In this document: piece by piece, positions 7,428 to 57,923 of the stretch
How the letters are laid out: every line of letters starts with the position of its first letter
Position numbering within the stretch: the stretch's first letter is position 1
DNA from: Shigella phage JK32
Reading direction: 5' to 3' (one strand)
Length of the DNA: 64,000 nucleotides
Sequence record: MK962753.1
Program-made: the position numbers and the translations under genes
The notes under the pieces: generated by a model
The model's input: the letters and a program-made list of their open reading frames with translations, nothing else
The model's database searches: none
What the model was told of the DNA's origin: nothing

Positions 7428-7439
7428 TGGGGGTGTATA

Positions 7440-8363: not shown

Positions 8364-8370
8364 TCCTATT

Positions 8371-8400: not shown

Positions 8401-8420
8401 AATATCAACGAGGATATGAT

Positions 8421-15201: not shown

Positions 15202-17742
15202 TTAAAATAGTTGAGTACCATCAACCAGATAACCATTACGAGATTCCAATACATGAGTATTAGAATAGTGATGCAACGAGGCTGCAATAGTCTCGATCTC
15301 GTCCGGGTATTTGGTGTGTTCAAAGTCTTCTAACCAGTTAAGCCCTTCGCGGTTGCAACGGTCAATTTCATCAAGTACCCAATAGCCTTGATACTGGAAC
15401 GAAGTACGACGCCACGGAATCGGGTGTACATAGCGTTTTAATTTCGCGGTAGTAAACACTACACGAACTTTTTCACTATGTTTAACATGTCCTTCGTCGT
15501 CAGTAACTTCTGCATAATAGGTTGCTTGATGTGTCTCCTTGCTAATTTGTTCTTTAGGAATAGTATACACCTTACTATTCGCGCCAGGAATAACAGTATC
15601 TTTACCGCCCTGAATTTTATGCCACTTCCATTGAACTTCTTTTTCATCATCAACGTGTTCGGCATGAGCTTCTAAGGTAATATCCTGTTTCTGTCCTTCT
15701 TTAGCAACCACATCCACCGGATGTTTCAGAATATTGATATTTGAATGATGAGTCATTGTCACTAATGCAGGATTAGATTCAATGGTATTCTCACCAGCCG
15801 TAATTACCGCTGTGTAGCTGCCTACGTCAGACGGTTTTGCGTGATCAATAATCAACACATCTGAATTTGCACCAGGAATAATTTCACCGTCTTTTTTCCA
15901 TTGATATGATGGTTTAATACCAATAGATGTTTGTGCGGCAGCGTGTAACATAATTTTTTCATTATATTTCACATGCGCATCTTGTGGGTGAGTTGTTATT
16001 GCTAGGTCATTTGGAACAACCGTTACATCGTCGGAGATCAACACCCTAACCGCTTCTGACATTTTAGAAACTCGATGTTCACCGAATCCAGCCGATACAC
16101 GGCATGTATAAACGCCAGTAGATGTTAATTGTGCATGATCTTCGCCATATACATTTCGTTGTTCAATTCCTGCTGGGAAAAGATCCTCACCATCTTTAAA
16201 CCAACGGTAACGAACTGGCAAAGCATCATTAGACGTTGCCTTGATGGTAAGCGCCCATTGTCCACCGGAGCGAACTTTAACTGCTTTCGGTTGTACAGTG
16301 ATCTCTAACGTTGCCTTTGAGTTATCAACTGTCACCTGAACTGCATTAGACTCAGCCGAAATTCTGTGATTCTGGATACCCATAGAAACTTTACATTTAT
16401 ATTGACCTTCGTCTGCTTTAGTGATTGAGGAAAAATGCAAAGTTTTAGATGTTTTTCCAGGAATCAACTCATCATTTTTATACCACTGATAATCAAGTTT
16501 ATAATGTTCGTAGTCTGTCTCTGCTTCACAAATAAGAGTTTGTGAGGAACTAACTCGAACATTGGTTAACTGCTGTGGTTGTTGAGTGATTCGAATTGTT
16601 GGCGCAGCACCGACAAGAAGATCCGCTTCTTGTGATTCTGAAACCATATTATCACCGTAAGTCACTTTTGCTTTATATTTCGCCTGATTTAATTCCGCAG
16701 TTGCTGGTGCAATGTGGAGATCTTTATTAGTTGCGCCAACAATTGGTTTAAATTCATCTTCACCATTTTTCTTGATGTACCATTGAACTTTTACTGGTTC
16801 ATAGTTTGTTGCATAATCAACACTGAACAAACCTAAAGCACCAGCACCCACATTTATTGTGAGTGGTTGTTTAGTGAATCGAAAGAACGATCGACCTTCG
16901 ACTGTAACGTGACAATCTTTTGAATAGATCGTTGTTTCTGCTTGACGAACTTCAAGACGCCATACACCCTCGTCTTTTTTCGTGACGTGGGTTATAGTTA
17001 ATGCAGTGCCGTCTTGATCCAACACCATCCTATCGTTGTGAATCCACACATATGATAAAGGACGAGTTTTGTCATCGGTTGTCACCTGTGCTTGTAGTTC
17101 AAGTCTTCCATCTTCTGGAACTGTAACCGCTGATGGGTAATGTTCCTGAATATGAACTTTAGGAGCATCTTTATTTTGTTCCACTACTACAGGACTGATC
17201 CAATAGTGAGAACGTGCATCATCGGTAACAAATACCTTACAAGTATAGTTGCCAAAATCCTCATAACCAACTCGATCTACATGCACGTTTTTTTGACGGA
17301 TTTTATCTGGATTTAACTGAATGTGGTTTTTATACCAAATAGTATCAAATTGCTTGTTATCTTCGATGAACGGAGTAACAAAAATATCCAATTCTTCGCC
17401 TAAACGCTTATAAATGTAGGTCGGAGATTGATCCTGTGGTGCAAGGAAGGTGCGACGTTCAACAAGAATAGGCTTAATATCAACCGATTCAAGCGGATTA
17501 TCTTTCAGCTTAACTTTCGCTGTATACGTGCCGAATTGATCTTGAGTCATTTCAGCAATATACAGAGATTGATCTGGTTCTGCAACCTGATCTGATGGTA
17601 CGCTTTGACCGTTTAGCTTCCATTCTACGATATAGTCTTTAAAATCTGCGGTACTTACTACGAGCTTAAGAACAAGTTCATGTCCTACAGACGCGTAGAC
17701 CGGACCCATAGTTTGATGTAAAATATTGATTTTATCAGACAT
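15202..17742 (-). CDS. Hoc-like giant paralogue (multiple Ig-like domains + Hoc capsid-binding domain)
   Basis: 846 aa; repeated ~90-aa Ig-like units with conserved W/Y/C pattern; C-terminus KRYVHPIPWRRTSFQYQGYWVLDEI...ESRNGY homologous to Hoc C-domain; RBS AAGAGGA. Confidence 0.8.
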   Translation of the reverse strand: MSDKINILHQTMGPVYASVGHELVLKLVVSTADFKDYIVEWKLNGQSVPSDQVAEPDQSLYIAEMTQDQFGTYTAKVKLKDNPLESVDIKPILVERRTFLAPQDQSPTYIYKRLGEELDIFVTPFIEDNKQFDTIWYKNHIQLNPDKIRQKNVHVDRVGYEDFGNYTCKVFVTDDARSHYWISPVVVEQNKDAPKVHIQEHYPSAVTVPEDGRLELQAQVTTDDKTRPLSYVWIHNDRMVLDQDGTALTITHVTKKDEGVWRLEVRQAETTIYSKDCHVTVEGRSFFRFTKQPLTINVGAGALGLFSVDYATNYEPVKVQWYIKKNGEDEFKPIVGATNKDLHIAPATAELNQAKYKAKVTYGDNMVSESQEADLLVGAAPTIRITQQPQQLTNVRVSSSQTLICEAETDYEHYKLDYQWYKNDELIPGKTSKTLHFSSITKADEGQYKCKVSMGIQNHRISAESNAVQVTVDNSKATLEITVQPKAVKVRSGGQWALTIKATSNDALPVRYRWFKDGEDLFPAGIEQRNVYGEDHAQLTSTGVYTCRVSAGFGEHRVSKMSEAVRVLISDDVTVVPNDLAITTHPQDAHVKYNEKIMLHAAAQTSIGIKPSYQWKKDGEIIPGANSDVLIIDHAKPSDVGSYTAVITAGENTIESNPALVTMTHHSNINILKHPVDVVAKEGQKQDITLEAHAEHVDDEKEVQWKWHKIQGGKDTVIPGANSKVYTIPKEQISKETHQATYYAEVTDDEGHVKHSEKVRVVFTTAKLKRYVHPIPWRRTSFQYQGYWVLDEIDRCNREGLNWLEDFEHTKYPDEIETIAASLHHYSNTHVLESRNGYLVDGTQLF

Positions 17743-18580: not shown

Positions 18581-18616
18581 TTTGTATACTGTATTTATTG
18601 AGTGAGGCTATTCGCT

Positions 18617-20119
18617 ATGCAAGATATTAAAATTCACTTTCTGAACTACTCTCATGTTCAAATTGAATGTAGCGATTCAATTTTATTAGAAATGCGAGAT
18701 TATTTTAGTTTTGAAGTCGAGGGAGCGCGGTTTCAAAAAAGATTTAAGTATGGTGGATGGGATGGGCGTATTCGTCTTTTAGATTACAATGGAAAGCTGC
18801 CAATCGGCCTAACTAAAACCGTGGGAATCTTCGCTAAAAATATGGGCTATAGCGTATGGGTAGACCCTCGCTTATTCGAAAAAGAACAAGTTACAGAAGA
18901 AGAAATTACAAAATGGTGTAATGATCTGGAATTATATTCCGGTGCTAACAGGATCACCCCGCATTGGTATCAATCAAAGGCTGTCTTTGAAGGTATTCAT
19001 CATAAACGCCGTATGTTAGTTTTGCCTACGTCCGCTGGTAAATCTGCGATTGCTTGTATGTTGTCTCGCTGGTACTTAGAGAACTACGAAGGGAAAGTGC
19101 TGATCATCGTTCCTACCACGTCGCTAGTGCTGCAAATGCGTGATGATTTTGTTGATTATCGCCAGTTTCCTTATGAAGCAATTCATACTATCATGAGCGG
19201 TACTAGTAAACACGTAGGTGATCGCCTGATCGTTGTTAGTACATGGCAATCTGCATGTAAACAGCCTCGTGAGTGGTTCCAACAATTTGGGATGGTAATT
19301 GTTGATGAATGTCACAAGGCCACTGCTAAAAACCTGCTAAACATCGTTACTGATATGGATCATTGCCAATTTAAGATCGGCATGACTGGTTCCCCTCGTG
19401 ACGGGAAAGCTAACATGATGCAGTATGTCGGGCTTTTCGGTGATATTTCTAAGATCGTGAGTATTGACCGCCTGATGGAAGAAGGTCAAGTGACAAAACT
19501 GAAAATTAACTGTCTTTTCCTTCGTTATACCGATGAGGAATGTAGCGCGGTTAAGGGGAGAGAATATGCGGAAGAGATCAAGTATATTACATCTAACCCA
19601 CGACGAAATAAGTTTGCTTGCAATTTGGCGCTAAAACTCGCTAAGAAGGGCGAAAACGTATTCCTTATGTTCCGCAATACTAAGCACGGAAAACTTATGT
19701 ATGACGCGTTACAGAAGGTACACGACAAGGTTTATTATATTGACGGTGGAGTTAAGACAGAAGAACGTGATGAATTTAAGAAAATGGCGGAGGGTGACAC
19801 CGGGATCATTTGTGTTGCGTCTTATGGTGTGTTCTCTACTGGTGTTTCCATCAAGAACTTGCACCATGTTATTTTCGGGCATCCAGTTAAAGAATCAACC
19901 ATTGTTAGACAGAGTATCGGTCGTGCATTGCGTAAACATGGTTCTAAGGATATTGCTACCGTTTGGGATCTTATCGATCATTTGGCGGTTAAGACAAAGA
20001 GCAAGAATGCTAAGAAACAGTTTAGCCACCTTAATTATGCTCTTAAACATGCGCTTTTGAGGATACAGCTTTACAATACCGATAAATTTGAGTATGCTAC
20101 CAAGACTATAGAAATCTAA
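18617..20119 (+). CDS. uvsW: UvsW recombination/repair helicase
   Basis: Aligns with recalled T4 UvsW (MQDIKIHF..., YFSFE, WDGRIRLLDYN, helicase motifs LPTSAGKS, DECH); start moved to ATG 18617. Confidence 0.92.
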   Translation: MQDIKIHFLNYSHVQIECSDSILLEMRDYFSFEVEGARFQKRFKYGGWDGRIRLLDYNGKLPIGLTKTVGIFAKNMGYSVWVDPRLFEKEQVTEEEITKWCNDLELYSGANRITPHWYQSKAVFEGIHHKRRMLVLPTSAGKSAIACMLSRWYLENYEGKVLIIVPTTSLVLQMRDDFVDYRQFPYEAIHTIMSGTSKHVGDRLIVVSTWQSACKQPREWFQQFGMVIVDECHKATAKNLLNIVTDMDHCQFKIGMTGSPRDGKANMMQYVGLFGDISKIVSIDRLMEEGQVTKLKINCLFLRYTDEECSAVKGREYAEEIKYITSNPRRNKFACNLALKLAKKGENVFLMFRNTKHGKLMYDALQKVHDKVYYIDGGVKTEERDEFKKMAEGDTGIICVASYGVFSTGVSIKNLHHVIFGHPVKESTIVRQSIGRALRKHGSKDIATVWDLIDHLAVKTKSKNAKKQFSHLNYALKHALLRIQLYNTDKFEYATKTIEI

Positions 20120-20130
20120 TGATACAAAAA

Positions 20131-20151
20131 TACCCCGCGCTATGCGGGGTA
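20131..20151 (+). terminator. GC-rich hairpin after uvsW (no clear U-tract)
   Basis: CCCCGC..GCGGGG stem; could be a terminator or an mRNA-stability structure. Confidence 0.35.
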
Positions 20152-20167
20152 TGGAGGAAAGAAAATC

Positions 20168-21253
20168 ATGGAACTTGTATTTGCTAAAGATATAGAATTT
20201 GTAAAGAAAACAAACAATAAGTCCCCTCAATATTATGAAGACCTTATTATCAAACGCTGTGCTGATCTGAAACTTAACTTTGATGGATTTATTCTTCCGT
20301 GGACTGGTGCTAAGACTAAATTAATTATATCAAATCCAGAAAACGGTTTGACACAGACAATAAATGTTAACAGAATGATAACTTCTACAAATCCAGGTGA
20401 CAAACTAAAACGAGCAAATGAATTGCACTACAAGTCAGAAGCAACAAAATATCTGTTAAACGCTGGTCTTGAATTTATTGGTTGGAATGGGGAATATAAT
20501 AAAAGTAATTCTCTGTCTACATGGTGCGACGCTAAATGTTTGATTCATGGAACTACTCATCGATATTTATTGCGAACTATAGTTCAGCATAAAGATATGG
20601 TAAAGACAAAATGTGTTGAATGTTATCGGATCAATGAATTGACGGAAAAATACGGTAGTGTTGATGCAGCAATAGAAGACCAAGAAAAGCGAGTTTTCGA
20701 TATTGTTTCTAAGTTGGGGTATGAAATAAAACATTTCACTGGAGACCGATTGAGAGACAGCGAAACTGATGTAGTTCTATATTGCCCTAAACATGATGTT
20801 GAGTTTAGTCGAAATGTTTGCGACCTGGTTTATAAGAAATTTGTATACTGTCCTACATGCATTTCTGTTAATAAAGGAATGAGAAGTGGAATAATCCATT
20901 CCTCCAATATAGGGGCATCTAAACCGACTTCAATCTATTTGCAAAATTTGAGCGATAAGTTTTGTAAGTTTGGCGTTAGCGTTCGCCCAAAAGTTAGGAT
21001 GTATGAGCAACAAAAAGTTTCTCAATATAACCACTCTCTTGTGTATGTTCACACTTTCGAAAAAGGCTGGATGGCTGCCGATGTGGAATATGGGATAAAA
21101 CTTAACTTTAAAGGGCGTGGTGCTAGCCCTACAGCCGTTCCTGATGGGTATACGGAAACGAGAGATATTAGTATGCTCGATAGTATAAAACAGTTTATAG
21201 AAAACTATATAAGAGAGAATCCAGAAAATCCTCTATACCTAACAGAAATTTAA
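20168..21253 (+). CDS. Zn-ribbon-repeat protein with conserved C-terminal domain ending PDGYTET (paralogue of 55545..56783)
   Basis: 361 aa; several C..C......C..C modules; C-terminal IYLQ...KFGVS...R..R..Y...PDGYTET shared with ORF 55545..56783. Confidence 0.6.
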   Translation: MELVFAKDIEFVKKTNNKSPQYYEDLIIKRCADLKLNFDGFILPWTGAKTKLIISNPENGLTQTINVNRMITSTNPGDKLKRANELHYKSEATKYLLNAGLEFIGWNGEYNKSNSLSTWCDAKCLIHGTTHRYLLRTIVQHKDMVKTKCVECYRINELTEKYGSVDAAIEDQEKRVFDIVSKLGYEIKHFTGDRLRDSETDVVLYCPKHDVEFSRNVCDLVYKKFVYCPTCISVNKGMRSGIIHSSNIGASKPTSIYLQNLSDKFCKFGVSVRPKVRMYEQQKVSQYNHSLVYVHTFEKGWMAADVEYGIKLNFKGRGASPTAVPDGYTETRDISMLDSIKQFIENYIRENPENPLYLTEI

Positions 21254-21258
21254 TAAAT

Positions 21259-21283
21259 AGGGGCATATAGCCCCTATATTTTT
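21259..21283 (+). terminator. Rho-independent terminator
   Basis: AGGGGC-ATATA-GCCCCT hairpin followed by ATATTTTTA. Confidence 0.6.
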
Positions 21284-21298
21284 ACGGAGATTAAAATA

Positions 21299-21538
21299 AT
21301 GAGTATTAGCTTTAAAAGATTCCTTGTAGAAGCGGTTATTGATGGTTTCATGAATAAAATCTATTCTTGTAATACTATGGAAGGTTTGGACGAGCTTGAA
21401 AAATATTATGAAAAGCGCAAGAAAGAGACCGATCTCAAACCGTCAGATGATATCTCTATTCGTGATGCAATAGCAGGTCGGAGAAAACAGTTAGAGAGTG
21501 AAAACGAGCCGGAGGAGGAGCCGGAAGAGGATTTTTAA
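21299..21538 (+). CDS. Hypothetical protein (79 aa, acidic C-terminus)
   Basis: ORF with upstream GGAG; no recognised homologue. Confidence 0.5.
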   Translation: MSISFKRFLVEAVIDGFMNKIYSCNTMEGLDELEKYYEKRKKETDLKPSDDISIRDAIAGRRKQLESENEPEEEPEEDF

Positions 21539-21552
21539 TAAATCATCGGATA

Positions 21553-21580
21553 CAAAAAAAAGCCCCATCAATGATGGGGC
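21553..21580 (-). terminator. Rho-independent terminator (minus strand)
   Basis: 8-bp stem GCCCCATC/GATGGGGC; A8 on + strand gives a U-run on the minus transcript. Confidence 0.6.
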
Positions 21581-21618
21581 AAACAAAACCAATTAAAATC
21601 GGTTATCAACAAATTCCT

Positions 21619-21810
21619 TTAGAGAATCAAAGTAGTTTCTACCAGTTGTTCTTGTTCTTCTGCACTTGATTCGCTCAAATGATTCCGGTTTGCAAATTCT
21701 TCGCAATATCCCGGATGAACAACATGATTTTCGATTTTAACAGCCAACGCCATTTCGACTGGCTGTTTACATACAGCACAAATACAAGTCATAAATCCTT
21801 CCTCCTGCAT
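21619..21810 (-). CDS. Small Cys-rich hypothetical protein
   Basis: 63-aa ORF with CxxC and HxxxC; start uncertain. Confidence 0.4.
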   Translation of the reverse strand: MQEEGFMTCICAVCKQPVEMALAVKIENHVVHPGYCEEFANRNHLSESSAEEQEQLVETTLIL

Positions 21811-21822
21811 ATATTTAGTGTC

Positions 21823-22230
21823 TTACTTTCCAGACTCAAGCATACGCAACTCTATAGCATTCTTGATCGCGAATCCTCGCGATTTGATTATATCAAGAGC
21901 CTTGCCAGCAAAATCCATAACCATTTGATAATAAGCAATTTTTGTGTCCAATGGTAGGATATCATCATCTGCCGCCATCACAACTTTCAATTCTGATGTG
22001 GCGTACTCAACTCTACACCATTCATCACTACGATTAGTGTAAAAGTCAAGTTTATTTTTTGTGGCTTTCTTTTTCTTTGCTTCCAGCGCAATGATCTCGC
22101 GCTTTGCTTCACTATACACACGAAGCCATTTAGAGTAAACTACAGGGTTATTAAGTGCTTCCCATTGTAGCTTTGTTGCGTCGATCTTGACGTCAGCGTC
22201 AAGCTGGTCTTTGAGTTCATTCAGGTCCAT
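21823..22230 (-). CDS. uvsY: UvsY recombination mediator
   Basis: C-terminus IKSRGFAIK...E.GK matches T4 UvsY; start moved to ATG 22230 (RBS GAGGTG). Confidence 0.88.
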   Translation of the reverse strand: MDLNELKDQLDADVKIDATKLQWEALNNPVVYSKWLRVYSEAKREIIALEAKKKKATKNKLDFYTNRSDEWCRVEYATSELKVVMAADDDILPLDTKIAYYQMVMDFAGKALDIIKSRGFAIKNAIELRMLESGK

Positions 22231-22245
22231 AGTAAAACACCTCAA

Positions 22246-22632
22246 TCATTTAGACAATCTAACTCTAAGTTGTTCTAACTCATCTGGATTGTCTATAACA
22301 GAAAAATAAACCGTTACGATAATCGAGTTCTCATCATACTGCGGAGTTACGTCTACGTCAAGCCTTTTTACTCGTGGTTCGTAGTTTCTTATCGATTCTG
22401 TGATATTCTTAGACAAGGTATCCACAGTCAATGGGTTGATGTTTTCGAATAGTGCGCGGTTTAGATCACATCCAAAGTTAGGATCAAACGGGCGAGATCC
22501 CTTAGCCGTGGTTATGATCAGCAATATGGAATCTTTAACCGCTTTAATCCCTGTGTTCTTTTTAATATCGTTGTTCCATGCTCGCTTAAACTCTAGATTT
22601 AAGTCAGTGTACATCTGGTTAACTGTTGTCAT
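22246..22632 (-). CDS. 25: Baseplate wedge subunit gp25
   Basis: Matches T4 gp25 (IITTAKGSRPFDPNFGCDL, RNYEPR, FSVIDNPDE). Confidence 0.9.
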   Translation of the reverse strand: MTTVNQMYTDLNLEFKRAWNNDIKKNTGIKAVKDSILLIITTAKGSRPFDPNFGCDLNRALFENINPLTVDTLSKNITESIRNYEPRVKRLDVDVTPQYDENSIIVTVYFSVIDNPDELEQLRVRLSK

Positions 22633-22639
22633 AACTACC

Positions 22640-23278
22640 TCAAAGGATCGTCAGAAATTCATTAAGACCCCTGATCGAATGAATACCGGACTCCCCGCAC
22701 TCACACTTGATCGGCACTGCCAGTGTGATTTGTGGTCCTGTCAACTCATCGATGATAGTCTCTACATGTTCTGTTGTCAACATGCTTAGTATGGTGTCGA
22801 AGTCTTGCTCGTTTAGGTCATTAATATCAAATTCCTGATTATCTATGACAATATAATCAATACAAGCAATTACCATCTGCATGATATCGTCATCTTCTGT
22901 AAAACGCGGAGGACGGAATTTAATTTTAACCCCTCCTAAATCTAACAGATATGGTTCTGTGTCTGGGATCTGTGTCCGTTCAACGTTAAGATTGTATTCT
23001 TTCTCTTTGTTACATACTCCACACACCCACGTAGATTTGAAATTTTCTTTTGCTAGGCTATGACACCATAGCATAAGGAATAGATATTCAGCCTCGCACT
23101 TCTCTAGCTCTAATGCGTTAATTCCTGTACATTCATTGATAATGTCTAATACCGCTTCCTTAAGACGTCCAGTGCTCTTATATTCTACTAATTTTTGAAA
23201 TTCTTCATAGGTGAATGCTCTAGCGGTGATCGTCTTATCACCTAACTTGATCTTGAAAATATGTTGCATAGTATACAC
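22640..23278 (-). CDS. 26: Baseplate hub subunit gp26
   Basis: 212 aa, position between 25 and 51, CxxC motif, paralogous to the downstream gp51-like protein. Confidence 0.75.
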   Translation of the reverse strand: MYTMQHIFKIKLGDKTITARAFTYEEFQKLVEYKSTGRLKEAVLDIINECTGINALELEKCEAEYLFLMLWCHSLAKENFKSTWVCGVCNKEKEYNLNVERTQIPDTEPYLLDLGGVKIKFRPPRFTEDDDIMQMVIACIDYIVIDNQEFDINDLNEQDFDTILSMLTTEHVETIIDELTGPQITLAVPIKCECGESGIHSIRGLNEFLTIL

Positions 23279-23310
23279 CTCTTATGATACATAGAAATTA
23301 TTTAGTATTT

Positions 23311-23318
23311 TATAAATA
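23311..23318 (+). promoter_or_regulatory. T4-type late promoter (TATAAATA) for gene 51
   Basis: Exact TATAAATA about 20 nt upstream of gene 51 ATG, in the divergent 26/51 intergenic region. Confidence 0.6.
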
Positions 23319-23338
23319 CCCGAAAGGGGGATTGTATT

Positions 23339-24112
23339 ATGAATGTTATACGAATTAAAATGCCAGATGGCGGGGCTAAACGTTTTAAGCCATTCACTGT
23401 AAAAGATTATCGTGATTTTCTTTTAGTTTCGGCTGATATGAAAGGCAATCCATCGGAGGAACAACTGATTCTGGATGAATTGCTGGAGGAATTATACCCT
23501 GATGTGGACCCGATATTCCGAGAATATATTTTCCTGAACGTTTTTACTAGCTCAATAGGCAAAACAAAATTACCACTTTCTTTTAAGTGTCCAACCTGTG
23601 GTAAGGAAAAACGAATACTGTTAAACCTTGCTGTTCCGGCACTGCAACCAATCGTCCTAGAAACGGCTGGGCTTAAAATTAAGTTTAAGTATGTGAAACC
23701 ATCAAGCGACTACGCAAAAACGTTTCTAGAAGCTATTGAGAGCGTTTCTGACGGTGATCATGAGTATGTATGGACCGAATTGCCGGAGGAAGTGCGCGAT
23801 CAGGTTATAGATTCGATATCCTTCGCAGAATTTGAAACCATAGTAAAGAAAATGCACACCATTTTGATTGAGCAGAAGATCAAATGTTGTGATACACACG
23901 AATTAAGATATACTGATTTGTTGGGGTTATATAAACTAATCCTTAATCCAGATGAGCTTTTTACTTTTTATAGGATTAATCATTTGCTTGTAAAAAGTAG
24001 TTATACGTTTGGTGATCTAATGGATATGTTGCCAGTAGAAAGAAATATCGCCCTAACATTAGTAGAAAAAGACGTTAAAGAGGCAAATAATGCAAAGACC
24101 CGGATTTCCTAA
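23339..24112 (+). CDS. 51: Baseplate hub assembly protein gp51
   Basis: 257 aa; synteny (26 | 51-27-28-29-48-54); shares CPTCGKEK...LKIKFKY..P module with gp26. Confidence 0.75.
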   Translation: MNVIRIKMPDGGAKRFKPFTVKDYRDFLLVSADMKGNPSEEQLILDELLEELYPDVDPIFREYIFLNVFTSSIGKTKLPLSFKCPTCGKEKRILLNLAVPALQPIVLETAGLKIKFKYVKPSSDYAKTFLEAIESVSDGDHEYVWTELPEEVRDQVIDSISFAEFETIVKKMHTILIEQKIKCCDTHELRYTDLLGLYKLILNPDELFTFYRINHLLVKSSYTFGDLMDMLPVERNIALTLVEKDVKEANNAKTRIS

Positions 24113-25199
24113 CGTCTCTATAAAGCTATATCAGGACTATGAAGCATTTTTGGAAAATAGATTTGTTGAATTGGGAGCAACCTTCATTACAATGACATTA
24201 CGAGATTCTCTTCGTGGTGTCAATGAAGGTCTACTACAGATCTATGATTCTAAGGCGCTTCATACGAAATTAGCAGGAACAGAGATTATACAAATTTCAT
24301 TATCAACGGCTAATACTGAACAAGTATTCAACCGGATATATGGTATCGCGCATAGTAATGTGACCGTTGACTCTAAGGCCGATAATATAATAACCTTCCA
24401 GTTAAAGAGCTACCATGAAACGCTGAATCTAAAGTTTTCTCGCGCTACCGACACTAACGCGATGAATAACATCACCAGTATGATAGACGCGATCTATAAG
24501 AATGTTCCCTTGTGGAAACCTACCATTACAGGAGTAAACGTATTCATTCCTAAGTGTCCGTGGGTTAGTACCGTCAATGACTATTTTGAATATGTGAGAA
24601 CACATGGTCAGAGTGTAGACAACGAATCGTTCGTTTACTGTTGGGAAGACTTTGACGGGATCAAGATCACCGATCATAAACTACTAATGCAGGGTGATCC
24701 AATTCCTGCTATCGTCACCGAGCCTACCCTAACAGGACAATTCATGGATATGAGCGAATATTTGATGGTGTTTAACTTTGAGTGGGATACTAAGAGTAAT
24801 GCGGTAACAAAAAACTCATTCGCTAATGTCACTTACACAACAATTGATTTCATCACGAAGCAGTATAACAAGATTGTAGTGGGTAATGGTGATAACATAG
24901 CTCATTTTGCACATGGTGGTGCCTATGGTAATTTGACATATAAAAACGCGTATCTTGAAGGTTCTAAACTGGCAACTTTTGGACAATTTGATTCCTATGC
25001 CAGCGCGGTGTGTCATGGTAATTTCTCTCTACGTCCGGCACAAAAGCTAAGATTCTTTGATGCTAAACAGCAAATTCGCACCGACTTTATTGTCGATGAA
25101 GTTGTTCATGAAATTTGTCGAGAACAATCATTAACACATATTCACATGTTTAGTCATAGTGAGATTTTGAAAGATGTACAATTTGAAGGTAAAATGTGA
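24090..25199 (+). CDS. 27: Baseplate hub subunit gp27
   Basis: 369 aa; synteny and size; overlaps gene 51 end. Confidence 0.8.
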   Translation: MQRPGFPNVSIKLYQDYEAFLENRFVELGATFITMTLRDSLRGVNEGLLQIYDSKALHTKLAGTEIIQISLSTANTEQVFNRIYGIAHSNVTVDSKADNIITFQLKSYHETLNLKFSRATDTNAMNNITSMIDAIYKNVPLWKPTITGVNVFIPKCPWVSTVNDYFEYVRTHGQSVDNESFVYCWEDFDGIKITDHKLLMQGDPIPAIVTEPTLTGQFMDMSEYLMVFNFEWDTKSNAVTKNSFANVTYTTIDFITKQYNKIVVGNGDNIAHFAHGGAYGNLTYKNAYLEGSKLATFGQFDSYASAVCHGNFSLRPAQKLRFFDAKQQIRTDFIVDEVVHEICREQSLTHIHMFSHSEILKDVQFEGKM

Positions 25200-25717
25200 T
25201 GACTGATACTAAACCATCTCTAAAATTTGTTGTTCCTGTTAAAAATATTACCGTTAACGGGAAACATATCAAGATCCCTAAAATGGGGATCAAACAGCAC
25301 AGATTATTAAAAGATGTTCGTAGCTGTGAAGAGACTTTAAAAATTCTACTTGATTCCATTCACCCAGGACTAAATGCAGCCGAAGCAGAATATGTTATGC
25401 TTCACTTATGCTCTTTTAATGGCAAATGCCTAGAAGAAAAAGATGGTTTGCGATTGGATGATGTTTATATCTGTACAGAATCGGAGTTTGAATTTAATGG
25501 CGAGAAATTCAAGTTCACGCCTCCTATGCTCTCTTCTGAATATACACATGATGATGCAAATTTCCTAAGCAATCACTATCACGATCCTAGTGTAGACTTT
25601 CATAAATTCCCAGCGTTTATTATGAATTGGGCTACAGGATTAAGAAAAACCGTTGCCTTAGATACTCCAGAAGGTACTATCTATGGTGGCATTAACATAT
25701 TGGATCGCCTATCATGA
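25196..25717 (+). CDS. 28: Baseplate hub distal subunit gp28
   Basis: 173 aa; synteny and size; ATGA overlap with gene 27. Confidence 0.75.
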   Translation: MMTDTKPSLKFVVPVKNITVNGKHIKIPKMGIKQHRLLKDVRSCEETLKILLDSIHPGLNAAEAEYVMLHLCSFNGKCLEEKDGLRLDDVYICTESEFEFNGEKFKFTPPMLSSEYTHDDANFLSNHYHDPSVDFHKFPAFIMNWATGLRKTVALDTPEGTIYGGINILDRLS

Positions 25718-27393
25718 ATGACACATTAACATCATTTCGCGGAATGCGTAAAGACGCAGAAAATGATCCGCTTGATAAATTAGAAAAATTGGACAAACTA
25801 GATTCTATTGATAATCTTCAAGCTGCAAGCGAATTGGTAGCAGAGACAGTAGAACAAAAATCTAATGAAGTTATTGGAGCGGTGGAGGATAACACCGCCG
25901 CCAACGAATTAACGGCAGAAAACACACAATCAACTGCTGGTAATACTCAAAAAACCTATGAAGAATTGCAGAAGTTGAACAGCTTTTCTTCTCAGATGAA
26001 TGAGAAATTACGCGGTTTTGGTGTTATGATGGAACGTAGATTCAGCGTAGTTTCTAAGATCACCAGTGGTCTTGATGCAATTGAAAAGGCCATCAAGGAT
26101 GAGAAACAGCCGGAACAAACTATGCCATCACCGCAACCAGTTTTGCCGAGTGTACCGGAACAACAAAATAACGATAACTACCCTACGTTACCTAAGAAGC
26201 CTAAAGACGATAAGAAAAAGAAAGATAAGAACAGCGACCGTGACAATAATATGCAAATGCTAATAAAAGCGGTTCGCGGTGGATTTAAAGAGACTGTTGG
26301 TGTATCCAACAAGATATTCTCTATGCTGTTTAAAATGACCGTAACTGCATTGCTGGAAGTTGCCAAATGGGGAGCTATTCTTCTGGGGATCGTTGTTGCT
26401 ATTGATACTCTTATGATTCATTTTAGATACTGGAGCACGCAGTTTAACGAGAACTTTGGCGGGTTTATGAAGAAGGCCGGAGGATGGGGTACATCACTAA
26501 CAAGTATTTTAGCTAGTGTTGACGCGATTAAAGATTTTTGGGCTAAAAAACAATATGGTGATCTAGTTTGGGAAATTGTTAAAGGCATCGGTAAATCATT
26601 AAAAGATGCATTCTTCCAGTTAGATAAAATTGTCACTCAAGGCGTAGCGTCTGTATTGCGAACTATTCCTATGATGGGTGATGTTGCTGATACTATGGAA
26701 TATAACGCGCTAAAACAAGCTAAAGAGCATGGTGGATATAAACTTACACCAGAAGAAAATAAACTTTATCTTCGTAAGAAAAAAGAAGAAGATATGGAAA
26801 AAGGTAAACTTGCTAAAGCTAAATTAGCCGTTGAGAAATATAATCAGCCTTTGGGGATGCAAACAGAAATTTTGTTGTCGCCCGAAGAACAAAATGCTGT
26901 AGATAGATATGAAGAATTGAAGTCTGTGAGTGAGGAAAAATATTTGCGTAGTGGTGCTATTACTAGCGATGCAGAATCTGACTTAAAAAGAAATATTTCT
27001 ATGTTGGATTCGCTTAAGCCAAACTTACATGACAAACAGATTGCCGAACTTGATGCTAATGTAAATGAATATCGATCTTTGGTTAATGATGACTCATTGC
27101 TTTCTACTGATCGCAGAATGATTCAGGATCTGCTTAATCGTTATGACAAACTTCGTGCGGATAAAAACGCTAAGGTAACAGTAACCGCGCCTCCACCGGA
27201 TGAAACCGATACAGCAAAACAAGCAACGGCAATAGAACAGGGGCAATTACAGAATATCAGGAATGATAATTCTATTTCTAATACAGCCAACGTTGCAAAC
27301 ACGCAGATCTATAACAATAATAGAACGGTGCAGATAACACGGCCTCAAACTAGTACGCCTTCTCCCGGCCTATTACAGAAAGGAATAGTTTAA
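25714..27393 (+). CDS. 29: Baseplate hub subunit / tail length determinator gp29
   Basis: 559 aa; synteny and size; internal hydrophobic segment and helical regions. Confidence 0.8.
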   Translation: MNDTLTSFRGMRKDAENDPLDKLEKLDKLDSIDNLQAASELVAETVEQKSNEVIGAVEDNTAANELTAENTQSTAGNTQKTYEELQKLNSFSSQMNEKLRGFGVMMERRFSVVSKITSGLDAIEKAIKDEKQPEQTMPSPQPVLPSVPEQQNNDNYPTLPKKPKDDKKKKDKNSDRDNNMQMLIKAVRGGFKETVGVSNKIFSMLFKMTVTALLEVAKWGAILLGIVVAIDTLMIHFRYWSTQFNENFGGFMKKAGGWGTSLTSILASVDAIKDFWAKKQYGDLVWEIVKGIGKSLKDAFFQLDKIVTQGVASVLRTIPMMGDVADTMEYNALKQAKEHGGYKLTPEENKLYLRKKKEEDMEKGKLAKAKLAVEKYNQPLGMQTEILLSPEEQNAVDRYEELKSVSEEKYLRSGAITSDAESDLKRNISMLDSLKPNLHDKQIAELDANVNEYRSLVNDDSLLSTDRRMIQDLLNRYDKLRADKNAKVTVTAPPPDETDTAKQATAIEQGQLQNIRNDNSISNTANVANTQIYNNNRTVQITRPQTSTPSPGLLQKGIV

Positions 27394-27394
27394 T

Positions 27395-29370: not shown

Positions 29371-29374
29371 TGTT

Positions 29375-29397
29375 AAAAGGGGCATTGCGCCCCTTTT
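29375..29397. terminator. Bidirectional rho-independent terminator between gene 54 (+) and lipoprotein gene (-)
   Basis: AAAAGGGGC-ATTGC-GCCCCTTTT: perfect stem flanked by A4/T4 on both sides. Confidence 0.75.
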
Positions 29398-29399
29398 AA

Positions 29400-29912
29400 T
29401 TAATTTAGTATATCTTCACACTGTTTACGCAGTTTATACCGGTATTCTTTAGAACTCAGCAATTGAACTTTTTCATAATCTCCAGACTCATATGCACTTG
29501 ACAGGTCGTCTTGATATGCTGCCTCTACCCCGATTCGACAAATGTCATATTTTCGTGCTTTCTTCAAGTCCAATTGTTCTCGCTCAAACTCTTTTCTTCT
29601 TTTCTCTAAATCTTCCTGATAGCTCTTATTTCTGCGATCTATCTTATCTTGAATCTCTGCGATTCTTTGTTGTGCTTCTTGTGGTAGTCCTATACGCGCT
29701 GCTGCCTCATCTTTTTTCTGTAGCATATCAATCACGCAATGTTCAGGGTCTTGATATACAAATTGCTTGACTTGCGAATGATTGTACCATTGAACACAAT
29801 ATTCTTCAACTTGCTGTATTGATGCTGTTGCGACTCGATAATCTTTTAACCCAGCGCACCCATTAAGCATAGCCACTAAAGCCGCAAGACCAATCAGTTT
29901 AATAATTTTCAT
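29400..29912 (-). CDS. Predicted lipoprotein with coiled-coil region
   Basis: N-terminal signal peptide ending in lipobox LNGC; K/E/R-rich helical middle; ATGA-coupled to upstream ART gene. Confidence 0.65.
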   Translation of the reverse strand: MKIIKLIGLAALVAMLNGCAGLKDYRVATASIQQVEEYCVQWYNHSQVKQFVYQDPEHCVIDMLQKKDEAAARIGLPQEAQQRIAEIQDKIDRRNKSYQEDLEKRRKEFEREQLDLKKARKYDICRIGVEAAYQDDLSSAYESGDYEKVQLLSSKEYRYKLRKQCEDILN

Positions 29913-55524: not shown

Positions 55525-55562
55525 GTACATTATACACTATTGCGTTACGCTGTCAACTCTTT
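55525..55562 (-). promoter_or_regulatory. Early promoter cassette, copy 14
   Basis: TTGACA-16 nt (contains GCGTAACGC palindrome)-TATAAT. Confidence 0.55.
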
Positions 55563-56783
55563 TTCAAAAGTTTTTACGATATACATGATAGTGCTCAATT
55601 CTGACGGCGCTACTGTTTCTGTGTAGCCATCCGGCATATCTTCTTTTGAGATATAGGAAGTTTTACCTTTCATCGCTTCCTTGATCTTGTTCTCTAATTC
55701 TAAGATCTTTTGACCATCTTGTAAAGTCAATTCATAAAAGATCTCGTGATCGAATTTAGATTTTGCTGATTGGTTTCTCATACGTTCTCTTGTTGTCAAA
55801 TTGGTTATTCCAAATTTAACACCTTCAAAAACGTCTCGTCTTAACAATTTTTGAATATATAATGTTCCTTGTTTTAAACGTTTGTAACCAGATTTCGTAC
55901 ACGAAGGACATCTCTTATGCGTTCTTGTTATGCTATGTATAGTTGGTGTCCAGACGCTACCACATCCACATAACATTGATATTCTTGTTGATGACCCGTT
56001 ATACTCATCGATAATTCCATTATATTTGATGTTTTCGGATTTACATATAGAGTATATTATTTTTTCATAGTGCTCTAATGGTTTAATTCTAAGACTTGAA
56101 TTATTTTTATATGCACATATTCTGCAATTATAACCTCTAAGAAAACTAGTTACATCAGTTGTATATGCGTGACCTCCGGTGCATTGTATAGTAAGTTTGG
56201 TATCATGTGTGATATCGTTATCAAGTAAAGTTATTATTTTGTAATTAATTGCTGAACATCTTTTCAAGATTTCTGATTTGTAATACGTTGATTTTTTATT
56301 CGTCTCTTGTATATTTTTTGTGTGACATTGTGGACATCTAGTTCCTTTCTTGGTGAAATGTGTTACTGTTGGTGTATATATGTGTCCATCTAAACATTCA
56401 ATCATTATTTTTGTTTTTAATTTATTCGAAGTCCATTCACCAACAACGCCACGATATTTCAACTTTTCGGATTTACATATTTCTATAATTTGTTTCTCTT
56501 GTTGTTCTTTTGTTATATATTCTCGCTTCTTGCTTTTTTGTTTTGCACATTTTGGGCATCTACTGCCTTGTTTTATACTAGATACGATAGGTTCCCAATA
56601 ATGACCGCACTTACAAAGTAAGGCCGTGCGAGTTCTATTCCCGATACATTCACCAATAAACCCCAAAAAGTTTATATCATCGGAAGAACACACATCGTGC
56701 ATAAATTTTTCATGTTCTAACATCTTTTTAATTTTGCTGGTGGATAGCATATTGACTATATCTTTAACGAAATATGTTTTCAT
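55545..56783 (-). CDS. Zn-ribbon-repeat protein with conserved C-terminal domain ending PDGYTET (paralogue of 20168..21253)
   Basis: Four tandem C.CGH.(W/Y).PT.........CP.C modules, then C-terminal LYIQKL...VKFGIT...R..R...PDGYTET domain; start at ATG 56783. Confidence 0.6.
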   Translation of the reverse strand: MKTYFVKDIVNMLSTSKIKKMLEHEKFMHDVCSSDDINFLGFIGECIGNRTRTALLCKCGHYWEPIVSSIKQGSRCPKCAKQKSKKREYITKEQQEKQIIEICKSEKLKYRGVVGEWTSNKLKTKIMIECLDGHIYTPTVTHFTKKGTRCPQCHTKNIQETNKKSTYYKSEILKRCSAINYKIITLLDNDITHDTKLTIQCTGGHAYTTDVTSFLRGYNCRICAYKNNSSLRIKPLEHYEKIIYSICKSENIKYNGIIDEYNGSSTRISMLCGCGSVWTPTIHSITRTHKRCPSCTKSGYKRLKQGTLYIQKLLRRDVFEGVKFGITNLTTRERMRNQSAKSKFDHEIFYELTLQDGQKILELENKIKEAMKGKTSYISKEDMPDGYTETVAPSELSTIMYIVKTFEKELTA

Positions 56784-56807
56784 TTTTATCCTCCGTTGTT
56801 TCGATGA

Positions 56808-56845
56808 GTGCATTATACATTATCTCGGATCGGTGTCAATACCTT
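56808..56845 (-). promoter_or_regulatory. Early promoter cassette, copy 15
   Basis: TTGACA-16 nt-TATAAT with conserved CGAAACAACGGAGGA leader. Confidence 0.55.
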
Positions 56846-56865
56846 TTCATAAAATTTTAGGCAAT

Positions 56866-56890
56866 AAAAAGCCTTCCCGAAGGAAGGCTT
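56866..56890 (-). terminator. Rho-independent terminator after gene 32
   Basis: GCCTTCC-CGAA-GGAAGGC hairpin plus U-run on minus transcript. Confidence 0.65.
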
Positions 56891-56909: not shown

Positions 56910-57857
56910 TCACATAGCCAACAAGCTATCAAGGTCATCCAGATCAGAAGCGGAGGAACTACCGCCACCCAGATCCAGAGATGTCATCAGATCATCAGCG
57001 GAAGAACTCGACGCGGTGCTCATTGCGCTAGTTCCTGCATCGAATGCATTCATCTGAGCATCAAAATCATCAAGCTGGCTGTTAATCGCTGCCGCAGCAC
57101 CAGAAGCCGAAGCACCAGCTACCAGACTTACACCTTTAACTTTCTTAAATTTAGCATCCAGTTCCTCGAAAGATTTAAACTGGTCTTTTGCTACGATAAC
57201 ATCAATATCTACCATGTTTTCGAACAGATATTTCTGGAATGCTTCATCTTCGATGTTCGGAATCGCTGATTGCTGCATGAAACGTGAATCATCGTAGTTC
57301 AGGAATTTATCTACTTTCTTAGCTTTCAGAAGGAAGTTAGCGCCTTCGAACGGACATACGATGTTTACAGGTTTTTCGCCCAATTCCGTGTTTACGTTGC
57401 TCATTGCCAGAATCTTGTCATAAATTTTCTTACCGAAGCGGAATTTAAATACTTTACCTTCGTTTTCCGGCGCTTTCGGATCTTTCATGACCAGAATGTT
57501 TGCGAAGTAAGAAGATTTACGCTTAACATCTTGATATTCTTTATTGTTGGTGTTGTACAGGTCATTTTCGCTAATGTATTTGCACACAGGGCAAGAATCA
57601 AAATCACCGTGGGTGCTAGGGCAGTTTTCCCAATAATACTTACCATTTACTTTGAAAGAATGGTTTACAAGGTTGATGATCGGTAAACCGTCTTCGGTGC
57701 GTGCTGGAAGAAAACGAATCACCGCTTCACCGTTACCCGCCGCGTCAGTTTTAATCTTCCACTCTTTCGGATCTTCTTTGGAGAAACCGTTGCTACCTTT
57801 CAGTGCTGCCAGTTGAGCTTGCAGTTTGGAAGAATCTTGACGACGAAAAATGTTCAT
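56910..57857 (-). CDS. 32: Single-stranded DNA-binding protein gp32
   Basis: Resembles T4 gp32 (Zn-site [25 protein letters not shown], acidic Ser/Asp-rich C-terminus); start at ATG 57857 with RBS AAGAGG. Confidence 0.92.
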
Positions 57858-57923
57858 AATTATACCTCTTTTATACATTAACTATTAATTTGCTAGACTA
57901 TTATACAGATTTAAATTTACTTG

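What the first reader, a model, noticed from the sequence alone, without database searches (positions are those of the whole stretch)
20168..21253. Two dispersed paralogues of a Zn-ribbon-repeat protein with a conserved C-terminal domain (…PDGYTET): possible mobile nuclease-like genes
ORF 20168..21253 (+, after uvsW) and ORF 55545..56783 (-, between frd and gene 32) share tandem C..C/H…C..C zinc-ribbon modules and a C-terminal domain ((I/L)Y(L/I)Q..L, KFG(V/I)(T/S), R..R, PDGYTET). The YxQ…KFG.T…R pattern has GIY-YIG-like spacing. Both sit at positions where T4 has only small or no genes, which fits free-standing mobile elements such as homing endonucleases, but the nuclease assignment is tentative.
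Basis: partly seen in the sequence, partly recalled or inferred. Interest (0 to 1): 0.5.

Follow-up and report, generated by a model that had tools for sequence, protein, structure and literature searches.

The report
Two homing-endonuclease-like genes in RB49-type phage
Two genes in this RB49-like (Krischvirus) coliphage encode a chain of zinc-finger DNA-binding modules followed by a divergent T5orf172/GIY-YIG-type nuclease domain, and they behave like selfish, movable homing-endonuclease genes sitting on recombination boundaries; this kind of gene is already described in other phages.

Summary
ORF1 (20168-21253, +) and ORF2 (55545-56783, -) share a ~105-aa C-terminal domain (32% identity, E 2e-10) and repeated CapR-type zinc-finger modules: two intact and one degenerate in ORF1, four in ORF2.

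Both genes are optional. ORF1 is a clean 1134-nt insertion between uvsW and uvsW.1 that 1 of 58 related phage records shares. It lies exactly where identity to RB49 falls from ~98% to ~74%. The frd/gene-32 site is empty, truncated, or holds very different alleles or unrelated genes in relatives.

The architecture was published for ICP1 and T5-like phages (Barth et al. 2023), and RefSeq already labels the RB49 homologue "endonuclease". I rate this a new member of a known kind. Cleavage and homing are inferred, not shown.

The parts
18602..20119 (+). uvsW helicase gene, left flank of the ORF1 insertion. It is the RB49-type allele.
   Evidence: 97-99% identical to RB49, G2248 and Whisky over most of its length, but only 62-87% to AV108. 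The last ~300 nt fall to 85-91% against RB49.
20110..20120 (+). Left copy of an 11-nt direct repeat, AGAAATCTAAT. It spans the uvsW stop codon.
   Evidence: Read from the sequence. The empty sites of RB49, G2248 and AV108 have one copy (GA(A/G)ATTTAAT).
20121..20167 (+). Leader of the ORF1 cassette: hairpin ATACCCCGCGCTATGCGGGGTAT (20130-20152) immediately followed by a GGAGG ribosome-binding site.
   Evidence: Sequence. The hairpin is found by the scan. No sigma-70-like promoter of its own scores above the shuffled background, so ORF1 is probably read through from uvsW (inference).
20168..21253 (+). ORF1, 361 aa. It has three CapR-like modules (residues ~20-75 degenerate, ~85-155, ~165-232), a flexible linker (235-248) and a nuclease domain.
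   Evidence: PHROG 681 'endonuclease' at E 1.6e-36; CapR at 22.6 bits, just under the 24.2 cut-off. Full-length AlphaFold model has pLDDT 83 and pTM 0.40, with three repeats of helix, three strands and a short helix. Zinc ligands.
20915..21220 (+). ORF1 nuclease domain (residues 250-351). Conserved residues: Y257, K267, G269, R277, E307, D326, G327, E330.
   Evidence: Profile match at E 1.6e-25 for the near-identical P0001. Invariant columns, numbering.
21244..21254 (+). Right copy of the direct repeat, AGAAATTTAAT. It spans the ORF1 stop codon.
   Evidence: The insertion relative to the empty sites is 1134 nt.
21299..21538 (+). uvsW.1, right flank of ORF1. It is the first gene of a divergent ~8.2-kb block running to about 29.5 kb.
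   Evidence: Pfam UvsW-1 at E 5.8e-22. From here to ~29.5 kb identity is ~74% to RB49 and G2248, 96-99% to Whisky, and ~94% to AV108 and PTE-Eco09.
55529..55556 (-). Early promoter (TTGACA, 16 nt, TATAAT) for the downstream frd.1-like gene. It overlaps the last codons and stop of ORF2.
   Evidence: Sequence. It has the same layout as the promoter upstream of ORF2 and as the single promoter in the empty site of PHB13.
55545..56783 (-). ORF2, 412 aa. Four zinc-finger modules (residues 1-298) followed by the nuclease domain.
   Evidence: Pfam CapR at 57.7 bits in 3 stretches, DUF4379 at 40.7 bits; PHROG 681 at E 1.7e-82. Four Cys/His...CxxC pairs. No phage record has a protein more than 47% identical. 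An identical protein exists in metagenomes (P0005).
55551..55889 (-). ORF2 nuclease domain (residues 299-411). Conserved residues: Y309, K323, G325, R334, E364, G386, E389.
56790..56890 (-). Expression signals taken over by ORF2: the gene 32 terminator hairpin (56866-56890), early promoter TTGACA (56834-56839) / TATAAT (56812-56817), and GGAGG (56790-56794).
   Evidence: Sequence. Homologous signals precede the unrelated 109-aa ORF of G2248 and the frd.1-like gene in the empty PHB13 site.
56910..57878 (-). Gene 32 (ssDNA-binding protein), flank of ORF2 and a mosaic allele.
   Evidence: 57101-57900 is 99-100% identical to G2248 but 70-86% to RB49, Whisky, JEP8 and PHB13. The 3' ~190 nt (56910-57100) match none of six comparators better than 78-89%.

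Best explanation
ORF1 and ORF2 are free-standing homing-endonuclease-type genes of the zinc-finger-array plus T5orf172-like (GIY-YIG superfamily) class.

Proposed mechanism:
1. A string of independently folded CapR-type treble-clef zinc-finger modules reads an extended DNA site. ORF1 has two intact modules and one degenerate; ORF2 has four.
2. A flexible linker tethers a small C-terminal nuclease whose active site uses the conserved Tyr, Arg and Glu (ORF1 Y257/R277/E307; ORF2 Y309/R334/E364).
3. During mixed infection the enzyme cuts the genome of a related phage that lacks the gene or carries another allele, near the insertion point.
4. The T4-type recombination machinery repairs the break from the endonuclease-bearing genome. 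This copies the gene and a variable length of flanking DNA, which leaves the gene on a boundary between sequence types.

Shown here: the architecture, the fold, the conserved catalytic constellation, presence/absence with exact empty sites, a decayed copy, allele hyper-diversity, and location on recombination boundaries.

Inferred: that either protein cuts DNA, what it cuts, and that it homes today.
For: Architecture:
- CapR and DUF4379 domains, and PHROG 681 'endonuclease'.
- Repeated modules in the full-length model; the low pTM fits beads on a string.
- ICP1 gp122 (CapR x3 plus T5orf172) has the same layout. Barth et al. 2023 describe this class (PMC10448857).

Nuclease domain:
- Alignment of 27 relatives has invariant Y, G, R, E, G, E.
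- Model at pLDDT 96.
- hhalign to Odn at E 1.8e-4 places the invariant E on E180, whose E180A change abolishes cleavage (PMC8263062).
- 13-14 of 27 relatives give sub-threshold T5orf172/MUG113 hits.
- BFVD neighbours with TM 0.74-0.9 include proteins named GIY-YIG, T5 Orf172 and homing endonuclease.

Mobility of ORF1:
- Only 1 of 58 Krischvirus records (Whisky) has it.
- RB49, G2248 and AV108 have a clean 42-43-nt empty junction.
- AV108 and PTE-Eco09 share the divergent right-hand block but lack the gene.
- The gene sits exactly at the switch from ~98% to ~74% identity to RB49.
- Between the two carriers, the ~300-nt flanks are 93-94% identical against 98.1% for the gene itself (Fisher p ~6e-6).

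Mobility of ORF2:
- Empty site in PHB13; a 182-aa remnant in MIZ4; alleles of 412, 485 and 541 aa; an unrelated 109-aa ORF in G2248.
- 34 allele clusters of 329-541 aa are 29% identical in the DNA-binding part, 57% in the first half of the nuclease domain and 89% in the last 66 aa.
- A 1.4-kb stretch (ORF2 5' part, spacer and gene 32 3' end) is unlike all comparators.
Against: - ORF1 and ORF2 themselves give no Pfam GIY-YIG or T5orf172 hit even at E <= 1. There is no sequence match to any solved structure.
- Foldseek against the PDB is not significant. hhalign to the I-TevI catalytic domain finds nothing. The link to Odn has only 49% hhalign probability.
- The second Tyr of the classical YIG motif is Phe or Ile here.
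- No cleavage site is known. Barth et al. state that homing has not been shown experimentally even for the ICP1 members.
- The divergent block to the right of ORF1 also exists without the gene (AV108), so the gene need not have carried it. Its right end is not marked by a recognisable nuclease.
- The ORF2 site is framed by the early-promoter/terminator cassettes that are known to mediate gene shuffling in RB49-type phages without any nuclease (PMC2839356). Swapping there does not by itself prove homing.
Confidence: 0.75

Rival explanations
1. One or both genes are domesticated derivatives that now serve the phage, as ICP1 Odn does against its satellite. They would be sequence-specific nucleases aimed at competing phages (marker exclusion), satellites or host elements. 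The hypervariable zinc-finger arrays would then reflect an arms race rather than self-propagation.
For: Most Krischvirus genomes keep an intact allele at the frd/gene-32 site, expressed from a strong early promoter. The DNA-binding part is far more diverse than the nuclease tail. T5orf172 nucleases have been recruited in this way (PMC8263062; PMC10448857).
Against: Empty, truncated and replaced sites in close relatives show the gene is dispensable. ORF1 is in 1 of 58 records. No target outside the phage was looked for or found. Marker exclusion and homing are not mutually exclusive.
Confidence: 0.15
2. They are catalytically dead DNA-binding proteins, for example transcriptional regulators like the satellite protein CapR, that merely retain a nuclease-like fold.
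For: CapR, a relative of this class, acts as a repressor (PMC8096241 abstract and PMC10448857). Neither protein passes a Pfam nuclease model.
Against: The Tyr, Arg and Glu constellation is invariant across 27-30 diverse relatives and intact in both ORFs. It aligns with the residues needed for Odn cleavage. Conservation of these positions in a dead domain would be unexpected.
Confidence: 0.06
3. They are ordinary accessory genes moved only by the promoter/terminator (PeSL) cassette recombination typical of RB49-like phages. The nuclease plays no part in their spread.
For: ORF2 lies between two copies of the early-promoter/5'-UTR consensus, which recurs at least six more times in the window. An unrelated 109-aa ORF occupies the same slot in G2248 behind the same signals. 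PeSL-mediated shuffling is documented (PMC2839356).
Against: ORF1 is not framed by such cassettes; it is framed by an 11-nt repeat at a gene end. In AV108 a different nuclease gene marks the start of the same divergent block. The family as a whole shows the hallmarks listed for homing genes in ICP1.
Confidence: 0.04

Closest known systems
T5orf172 homing-endonuclease genes of vibriophage ICP1 and T5-like phages (Barth, Dunham & Seed 2023, PMC10448857), e.g. ICP1 gp122
   Same: N-terminal repeats of CapR/DUF723/DUF4379 zinc fingers followed by a small C-terminal GIY-YIG-superfamily nuclease. Variable presence, truncations, domain shuffling, and position next to essential genes and at boundaries of genetic exchange. 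The ICP1 ORF130 annotation cites similarity to RB49p240.
   Different: The nuclease domain here (PDGYTET type) does not reach the Pfam T5orf172 threshold in ORF1 or ORF2. The host lineage is a T4-type Krischvirus. RB49-group names (RB49, Krischvirus, Phi1, JSE, NC_005066) do not occur in that paper's text or held supplements. That paper notes that T4 itself lacks such genes.
ICP1 Odn (Gp88), origin-directed T5orf172 nuclease (PMC8263062)
   Same: Nuclease domain alignable at E 1.8e-4. The Tyr, Gly, Arg and Glu positions coincide, including the catalytic E180.
   Different: Odn uses a RepA_N-type DNA-binding domain (Pfam DUF6945 here) and is a domesticated anti-satellite weapon. It has no zinc-finger array.
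RB49p240 (ORF238c) and its alleles at the same frd/gene-32 site in Krischvirus; the T5 'RB49ORF238c-like' protein
   Same: Same family, same locus and same final ~66 aa as ORF2. RefSeq labels them 'endonuclease', and Skers labels its copy 'putative GIY-YIG nuclease family protein'.
   Different: ORF2 is at most 47% identical overall and has a different number and sequence of modules. ORF1 is at a different locus, which no other record but Whisky uses.
T4 SegE and SegG (classical GIY-YIG free-standing homing endonucleases)
   Same: Free-standing genes in intergenic spacers next to uvsW and gene 32. AV108 has a SegE-like gene at the T4 segE position. From my own knowledge, SegE cuts uvsW and SegG cuts gene 32 of sister phages, with co-conversion of flanking markers.
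   Different: Seg proteins have an N-terminal canonical GIY-YIG domain and a C-terminal DNA-binding region. Here the order is reversed, the binding part is a zinc-finger array, and the insertion points differ.
PeSL promoter/stem-loop cassettes of RB49-type phages (Arbiol et al. 2010, PMC2839356)
   Same: The ORF2 slot is framed by a terminator hairpin plus the early promoter/5'-UTR consensus on both sides.
   Different: PeSLs are a recombination substrate, not a gene family. That paper does not discuss this gene.

Membership tests
GIY-YIG nuclease superfamily | Core fold beta1-beta2-alpha1-beta3-alpha2 | tested here: met
GIY-YIG nuclease superfamily | First-strand Tyr ('GIY') and catalytic Arg in helix 1 | tested here: met
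   Y and R are invariant in 27 and 30 relatives. They are ORF1 Y257/R277 and ORF2 Y309/R334.
GIY-YIG nuclease superfamily | Second-strand Tyr ('YIG') | tested here: not met
   The motif is K-F/I-G. The Gly is invariant but the Tyr is replaced by Phe, Ile or Leu. Odn has K-V-G at the aligned position.
GIY-YIG nuclease superfamily | Metal-binding catalytic Glu | tested here: met
   The invariant Glu (ORF1 E307, ORF2 E364) aligns with Odn E180. The E180A change abolishes cleavage (PMC8263062). The catalytic role in these two proteins is inferred.
GIY-YIG nuclease superfamily | Match to Pfam GIY-YIG (PF01541) at the gathering score | tested here: not met
   No hit at E <= 1 for either protein.
T5orf172 / MUG113 (Pfam PF10544 / PF13455) | Score at or above the Pfam gathering threshold | tested here: not met
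   ORF1 and ORF2 have no hit at E <= 1. 13-14 of 27 relatives hit only weakly (best E 9e-5). The T5 and RB49 homologues also fail, whereas ICP1 Odn and gp122 pass.
T5orf172 / MUG113 (Pfam PF10544 / PF13455) | Homology to bona fide members by profile and by structure | tested here: inconclusive
   hhalign to Odn gives E 1.8e-4 at 49% probability; to gp122, E 4.8e-4. BFVD neighbours include a 'T5 Orf172' protein (E 8.5e-7, TM 0.74) and the Mt1B1_P17 protein. The best reading is a divergent sister group.
CapR homology zinc-finger domain (PF21817) | Pfam gathering score; Cys/His...CxxC ligands; tandem repeats | tested here: met
   ORF2 scores 57.7 bits against a cut-off of 24.2, in 3 stretches, and has four ligand sets. 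ORF1 scores 22.6 bits, just below the cut-off, but has two ligand sets and three modelled repeats.
Free-standing homing endonuclease gene (functional class) | Presence/absence among close relatives with an exact empty site | tested here: met
   ORF1: 1 of 58 records carries it, with empty junctions in RB49, G2248 and AV108. ORF2: empty in PHB13, remnant in MIZ4.
Free-standing homing endonuclease gene (functional class) | Flanking co-conversion / location at a recombination boundary | tested here: met
   Identity steps occur at both genes. The immediate flanks are more divergent than the gene between the two carriers. These patterns are compatible with homing but do not prove it.
Free-standing homing endonuclease gene (functional class) | Site-specific cleavage of the gene-less allele and over-inheritance in crosses | not testable with these tools
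   Needs protein biochemistry and phage crosses.

The most novel reading that the evidence does not exclude
The nuclease genes flanking uvsW govern which version of the ~8-kb baseplate-hub module a Krischvirus inherits. These are the T5orf172-like gene here and the SegE-like gene in AV108. At the other locus, the hypervariable zinc-finger arrays co-evolve with linked gene 32 alleles: each allele would cut competitors' gene 32 regions while its own linked allele is immune. That would be a multi-allelic marker-exclusion system rather than a simple selfish insertion.
Probability: 0.2. Interest if true: 0.55.

Novelty: new member of a known kind. Interest (0 to 1): 0.35.

Why it matters
It extends the zinc-finger-array/T5orf172-type homing-gene class, studied so far mainly in ICP1 and T5-like phages, to a T4-type lineage (Krischvirus), where these genes are poorly annotated.

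It gives two clean natural examples of such genes on boundaries of genetic exchange next to core recombination and replication genes (uvsW/uvsW.1 and gene 32).

The PDGYTET-type domain is large (more than 3000 clusters at 50% identity) and mostly escapes the Pfam nuclease models. A dedicated profile would improve phage annotation.

The many natural alleles with one constant nuclease tail and different finger arrays could serve as material for studying, or engineering, modular DNA recognition.

Tried and rejected
- Sequence searches of ORF2 and of the domain profile against all PDB chains found nothing.
- hhalign of the domain profile against the I-TevI catalytic domain gave no meaningful alignment.
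- NCBIfam gave only noise.
- The AlphaFold-database library was unavailable.
- The word-indexed homologue search with ORF1 found only 4 proteins. The exhaustive profile search was needed.
- I first recalled that T4 segG lies between frd and gene 32. The T4 record shows it lies between genes 32 and 59, so that statement was dropped.
- I tested whether the right end of the divergent block after ORF1 is also marked by a nuclease, which would make it a 'HEG island'. The 170-aa ORF there has no nuclease signature.
- I considered that the promoter duplication around ORF2 was a target-site duplication. The same promoter/5'-UTR consensus recurs at other early genes, so it is the general early-gene cassette.
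- The closest relative of the ORF1 nuclease domain (P0002) lies on a short metagenomic contig next to a serine recombinase, which says nothing about a donor phage.

Full report
**Where the window comes from.** The window is a T4-type coliphage of the genus Krischvirus (RB49 group). A 3.7-kb piece around the finding matches 58 phage records, nearly all Escherichia/Shigella Krischvirus. The gene order is inh, uvsW, uvsW.1, uvsY, 25 ... td, frd, 32, 59, as in RB49.

**The observation.**
- ORF1 (20168-21253, +, 361 aa) and ORF2 (55545-56783, -, 412 aa) exist as described.
- The ORF2 start at 56783 is the one preceded by GGAGG. The longer reading frame begins inside the -10 box of the promoter.
- BLASTP aligns the C-terminal ~105 residues at 32% identity (E 2e-10), and short N-terminal pieces only weakly.
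- phmmer with the N-terminal 248 residues of ORF1 recovers the ORF2 protein (E 1.7e-5) and dozens of family members. The two are therefore paralogues over their whole length, much diverged in the N-terminal part.
- A profile scan of all reading frames finds this C-terminal domain only in these two ORFs of the window.

**N-terminal part.**
- Pfam finds the CapR homology domain in ORF2 (57.7 bits, three stretches) plus DUF4379, a treble-clef zinc finger. In ORF1, CapR scores just under threshold (22.6 against 24.2 bits).
- ORF2 has four Cys/His...CxxC ligand sets and ORF1 has two.
- A 30-sequence alignment shows that the first module of ORF1 has lost the ligands that at least 90% of relatives keep.
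- The full-length ORF1 model (pLDDT 83, pTM 0.40) shows three repeats of helix, three strands and a short helix. These are followed by a disordered linker (235-248) and the C-terminal domain. This is a beads-on-a-string protein.

**C-terminal domain.**
- An alignment of 27 diverse relatives has invariant Y, G, R, E, G and E.
- AlphaFold gives a very confident model (pLDDT 96) with a beta-beta-alpha-beta-alpha core.
- ORF1 and ORF2 themselves give no Pfam nuclease hit. About half of the aligned relatives give sub-threshold T5orf172 and MUG113 hits.
- hhalign of the profile against ICP1 Odn (Gp88) gives E 1.8e-4. It superposes Y11/G27/R36/E66/E91 of the domain on Odn Y127/G140/R148/E180/E202. 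E180A abolishes Odn cleavage in vitro and in vivo (PMC8263062).
- In the viral structure library, neighbours with TM 0.74-0.9 include proteins named CapR-homology, GIY-YIG, homing endonuclease and T5 Orf172, and the Mt1B1_P17 protein discussed by Barth et al..
- An exhaustive profile search finds 3121 clusters at E <= 1e-3. In the 150 listed, the domain lies at or near the C-terminus of the protein.
- I conclude that this is a large, divergent sister group of T5orf172 within the GIY-YIG superfamily, with the catalytic residues intact in both ORFs. Activity itself is inferred.

**ORF1 locus.**
- RB49, G2248 and AV108 have 42-43 nt between uvsW and uvsW.1: a hairpin, a T-run and the ribosome-binding site. 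The window and phage Whisky have 1134 extra nucleotides there. Whisky is the only one of 58 records that covers the insertion.
- The cassette brings its own hairpin and GGAGG. It is bounded by an 11-nt direct repeat, AGAAAT(C/T)TAAT, made of the last codons and stop of uvsW on the left and of ORF1 on the right.
- Sliding identity gives the most telling result. uvsW is 97-99% identical to RB49, G2248 and Whisky. From uvsW.1 to about 29.5 kb (uvsY, gene 25 and the baseplate-hub genes) the window is only ~74% identical to RB49 and G2248, yet 96-99% to Whisky. ORF1 therefore sits on the junction between two sequence types.
- AV108 and PTE-Eco09 carry the same divergent block (94%) without ORF1. 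In AV108 the block starts one gene earlier, at the start of uvsW. There, AV108 has a SegE-like canonical GIY-YIG gene, in the position where T4 has segE. Two different nuclease genes thus mark the left edge of the same block in two lineages.
- Between the two ORF1 carriers, the gene is 98.1% identical, but the 300 nt on either side are 93-94% identical (Fisher p ~6e-6 against the gene, ~9e-7 against distal flanks). This is what independent repair tracts around a moving gene would give.
- The right edge of the block carries no recognisable nuclease.

**ORF2 locus.**
- ORF2 follows the gene 32 terminator and a consensus early promoter. A second copy of the same promoter/5'-UTR overlaps its last codons and drives the next gene.
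- In PHB13 the site is empty, with one promoter directly in front of the frd.1-like gene.
- In MIZ4 there is a 182-aa remnant. Stop codons follow the resident promoter and start codon.
- RB49 has a 485-aa allele and JEP8 a 541-aa allele.
- G2248, which carries the window's gene 32 allele, holds an unrelated 109-aa ORF behind the same signals. ECD7 and Brandy carry the same gene 32 allele, and their matches to this region are the same length as G2248's, ~0.9 kb shorter than the query, but their sites were not read.
- Skers has HNH and GIY-YIG genes annotated in this region.
- No phage record encodes a protein more than 47% identical to ORF2. An identical one occurs in metagenomes.
- Across 34 allele clusters of 329-541 aa, the DNA-binding part is 29% identical on average, the first 48 aa of the nuclease domain 57%, and the last 66 aa 89%. 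The locus therefore keeps a constant nuclease tail and swaps finger arrays.
- At the DNA level, the frd side is 96-100% identical to all comparators. Window 55700-57100 (the ORF2 5' two-thirds, the spacer and the last ~190 nt of gene 32) matches none of six comparators. The rest of gene 32 is 99-100% G2248-type but 70-86% identical to RB49-type. Gene 59 is again common to all.
- The promoter/5'-UTR consensus recurs at other early genes. It corresponds to the PeSL cassettes known to mediate shuffling in RB49-type phages (PMC2839356). Cassette recombination is therefore a sufficient alternative route for swaps at this particular site.

**Comparison with what is known.**
- The architecture and behaviour match the T5orf172 homing-endonuclease genes described for ICP1, T5-like and other phages. 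Those have repeated CapR/DUF723/DUF4379 fingers, domain shuffling, variable presence, and positions at boundaries of genetic exchange (PMC10448857).
- That paper notes that T4 has no T5orf172 genes. The names RB49, Krischvirus, Phi1, JSE and NC_005066 do not occur in its text or held supplements.
- However, the ICP1 genome annotation already cites similarity of ORF130 to RB49p240. T5 has an 'RB49ORF238c-like' protein. RefSeq calls the RB49 homologue 'endonuclease'.
- Other Krischvirus genomes carry a third family member at another locus, outside this window.
- The finding is therefore a new member, with one previously unused insertion site, of a known kind.

**Verdict.**
- The most likely mechanism is a tethered GIY-YIG-type nuclease, directed by a zinc-finger array, that promotes its own spread and the co-conversion of neighbouring markers during mixed infection (confidence about 0.75).
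- Domestication, as an exclusion or anti-satellite nuclease, is the main rival.
- Cleavage, target sites and homing have not been shown.

Noticed in passing
window 21300-29500: An ~8.2-kb block (uvsW.1, uvsY, gene 25 and baseplate-hub genes through gp54) is only ~74% identical to RB49 and G2248. It is 96-99% identical to Whisky and ~94% to AV108 and PTE-Eco09. This is a module-sized mosaic segment in an otherwise 95-99% conserved region.
   Followed up: yes
L010 789-1520 (AV108), L016 1558-2175 (T4): AV108 has a SegE-like canonical GIY-YIG gene between inh and uvsW, exactly where T4 has segE. The AV108 divergent block begins right after it.
   Followed up: partly
window 53028-54248 (-): The thymidylate synthase gene encodes 406 aa. 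The Pfam match is split into two stretches, the second starting at residue 250, which leaves a large internal in-frame insertion with no Pfam hit. RB49 has a similarly long td. The insertion contains a W/F-rich stretch (AIWRGMRYEEFD...W...F) that reminded me of DNA-binding domains found in homing endonucleases. This was not tested.
   Followed up: partly
window 5400-10200 and 15300-17500: Two segments have no counterpart in the fetched RB49 and Whisky stretches and only 64-83% identity to G2248. The first lies after the major capsid gene region and the second near hoc/inh. They look like further variable insertions.
   Followed up: no
L014 3320-3916 (MIZ4): MIZ4 has an HNH endonuclease gene between genes 32 and 59, the position of segG in T4. 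Both sides of gene 32 are therefore insertion sites for nuclease genes in T4-type phages.
   Followed up: no
window 35770-35814, 36272-36316, 37047-37091, 47844-47888, 48120-48164, 48399-48443 (-): A conserved early promoter plus 5'-UTR unit (TTGACA, 17 nt, TATAAT-like, 6 nt, ATCGAAAC) recurs on the minus strand. There are 6 matches against 0.01 expected. This fits the PeSL cassettes described for RB49-type phages (PMC2839356).
   Followed up: partly
proteins P0051, P0054, P0055 (relatives of ORF2): These share the zinc-finger N-terminal part, but end in a different C-terminal domain with an (I/L)EYDGxQH motif instead of the PDGYTET domain. The same binding arrays are thus joined to other effector domains. 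I did not identify that domain.
   Followed up: no
G2248 64906-65889, ECD7 64571-65539, Phi1 62928-63914, Skers 325-1287 (record coordinates): Many Krischvirus genomes carry a third family member (26-28% identical to ORF1 over ~95% of its length, E 1e-20 to 1e-24) at a locus outside this window.
   Followed up: no
window 19801-20119 and 21254-21538: Between the window and Whisky, the ~300 nt on each side of ORF1 are 93-94% identical, while the gene and the more distant flanks are 97-98% identical.
   Followed up: yes
window 55168-55530 (-): The frd.1-like gene downstream of ORF2 most likely starts at the ATG at 55497 (MWTVEQ...), not at 55530. The PHROG match begins at residue 12, and the earlier ATG overlaps the -10 box of the promoter.
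   Followed up: partly
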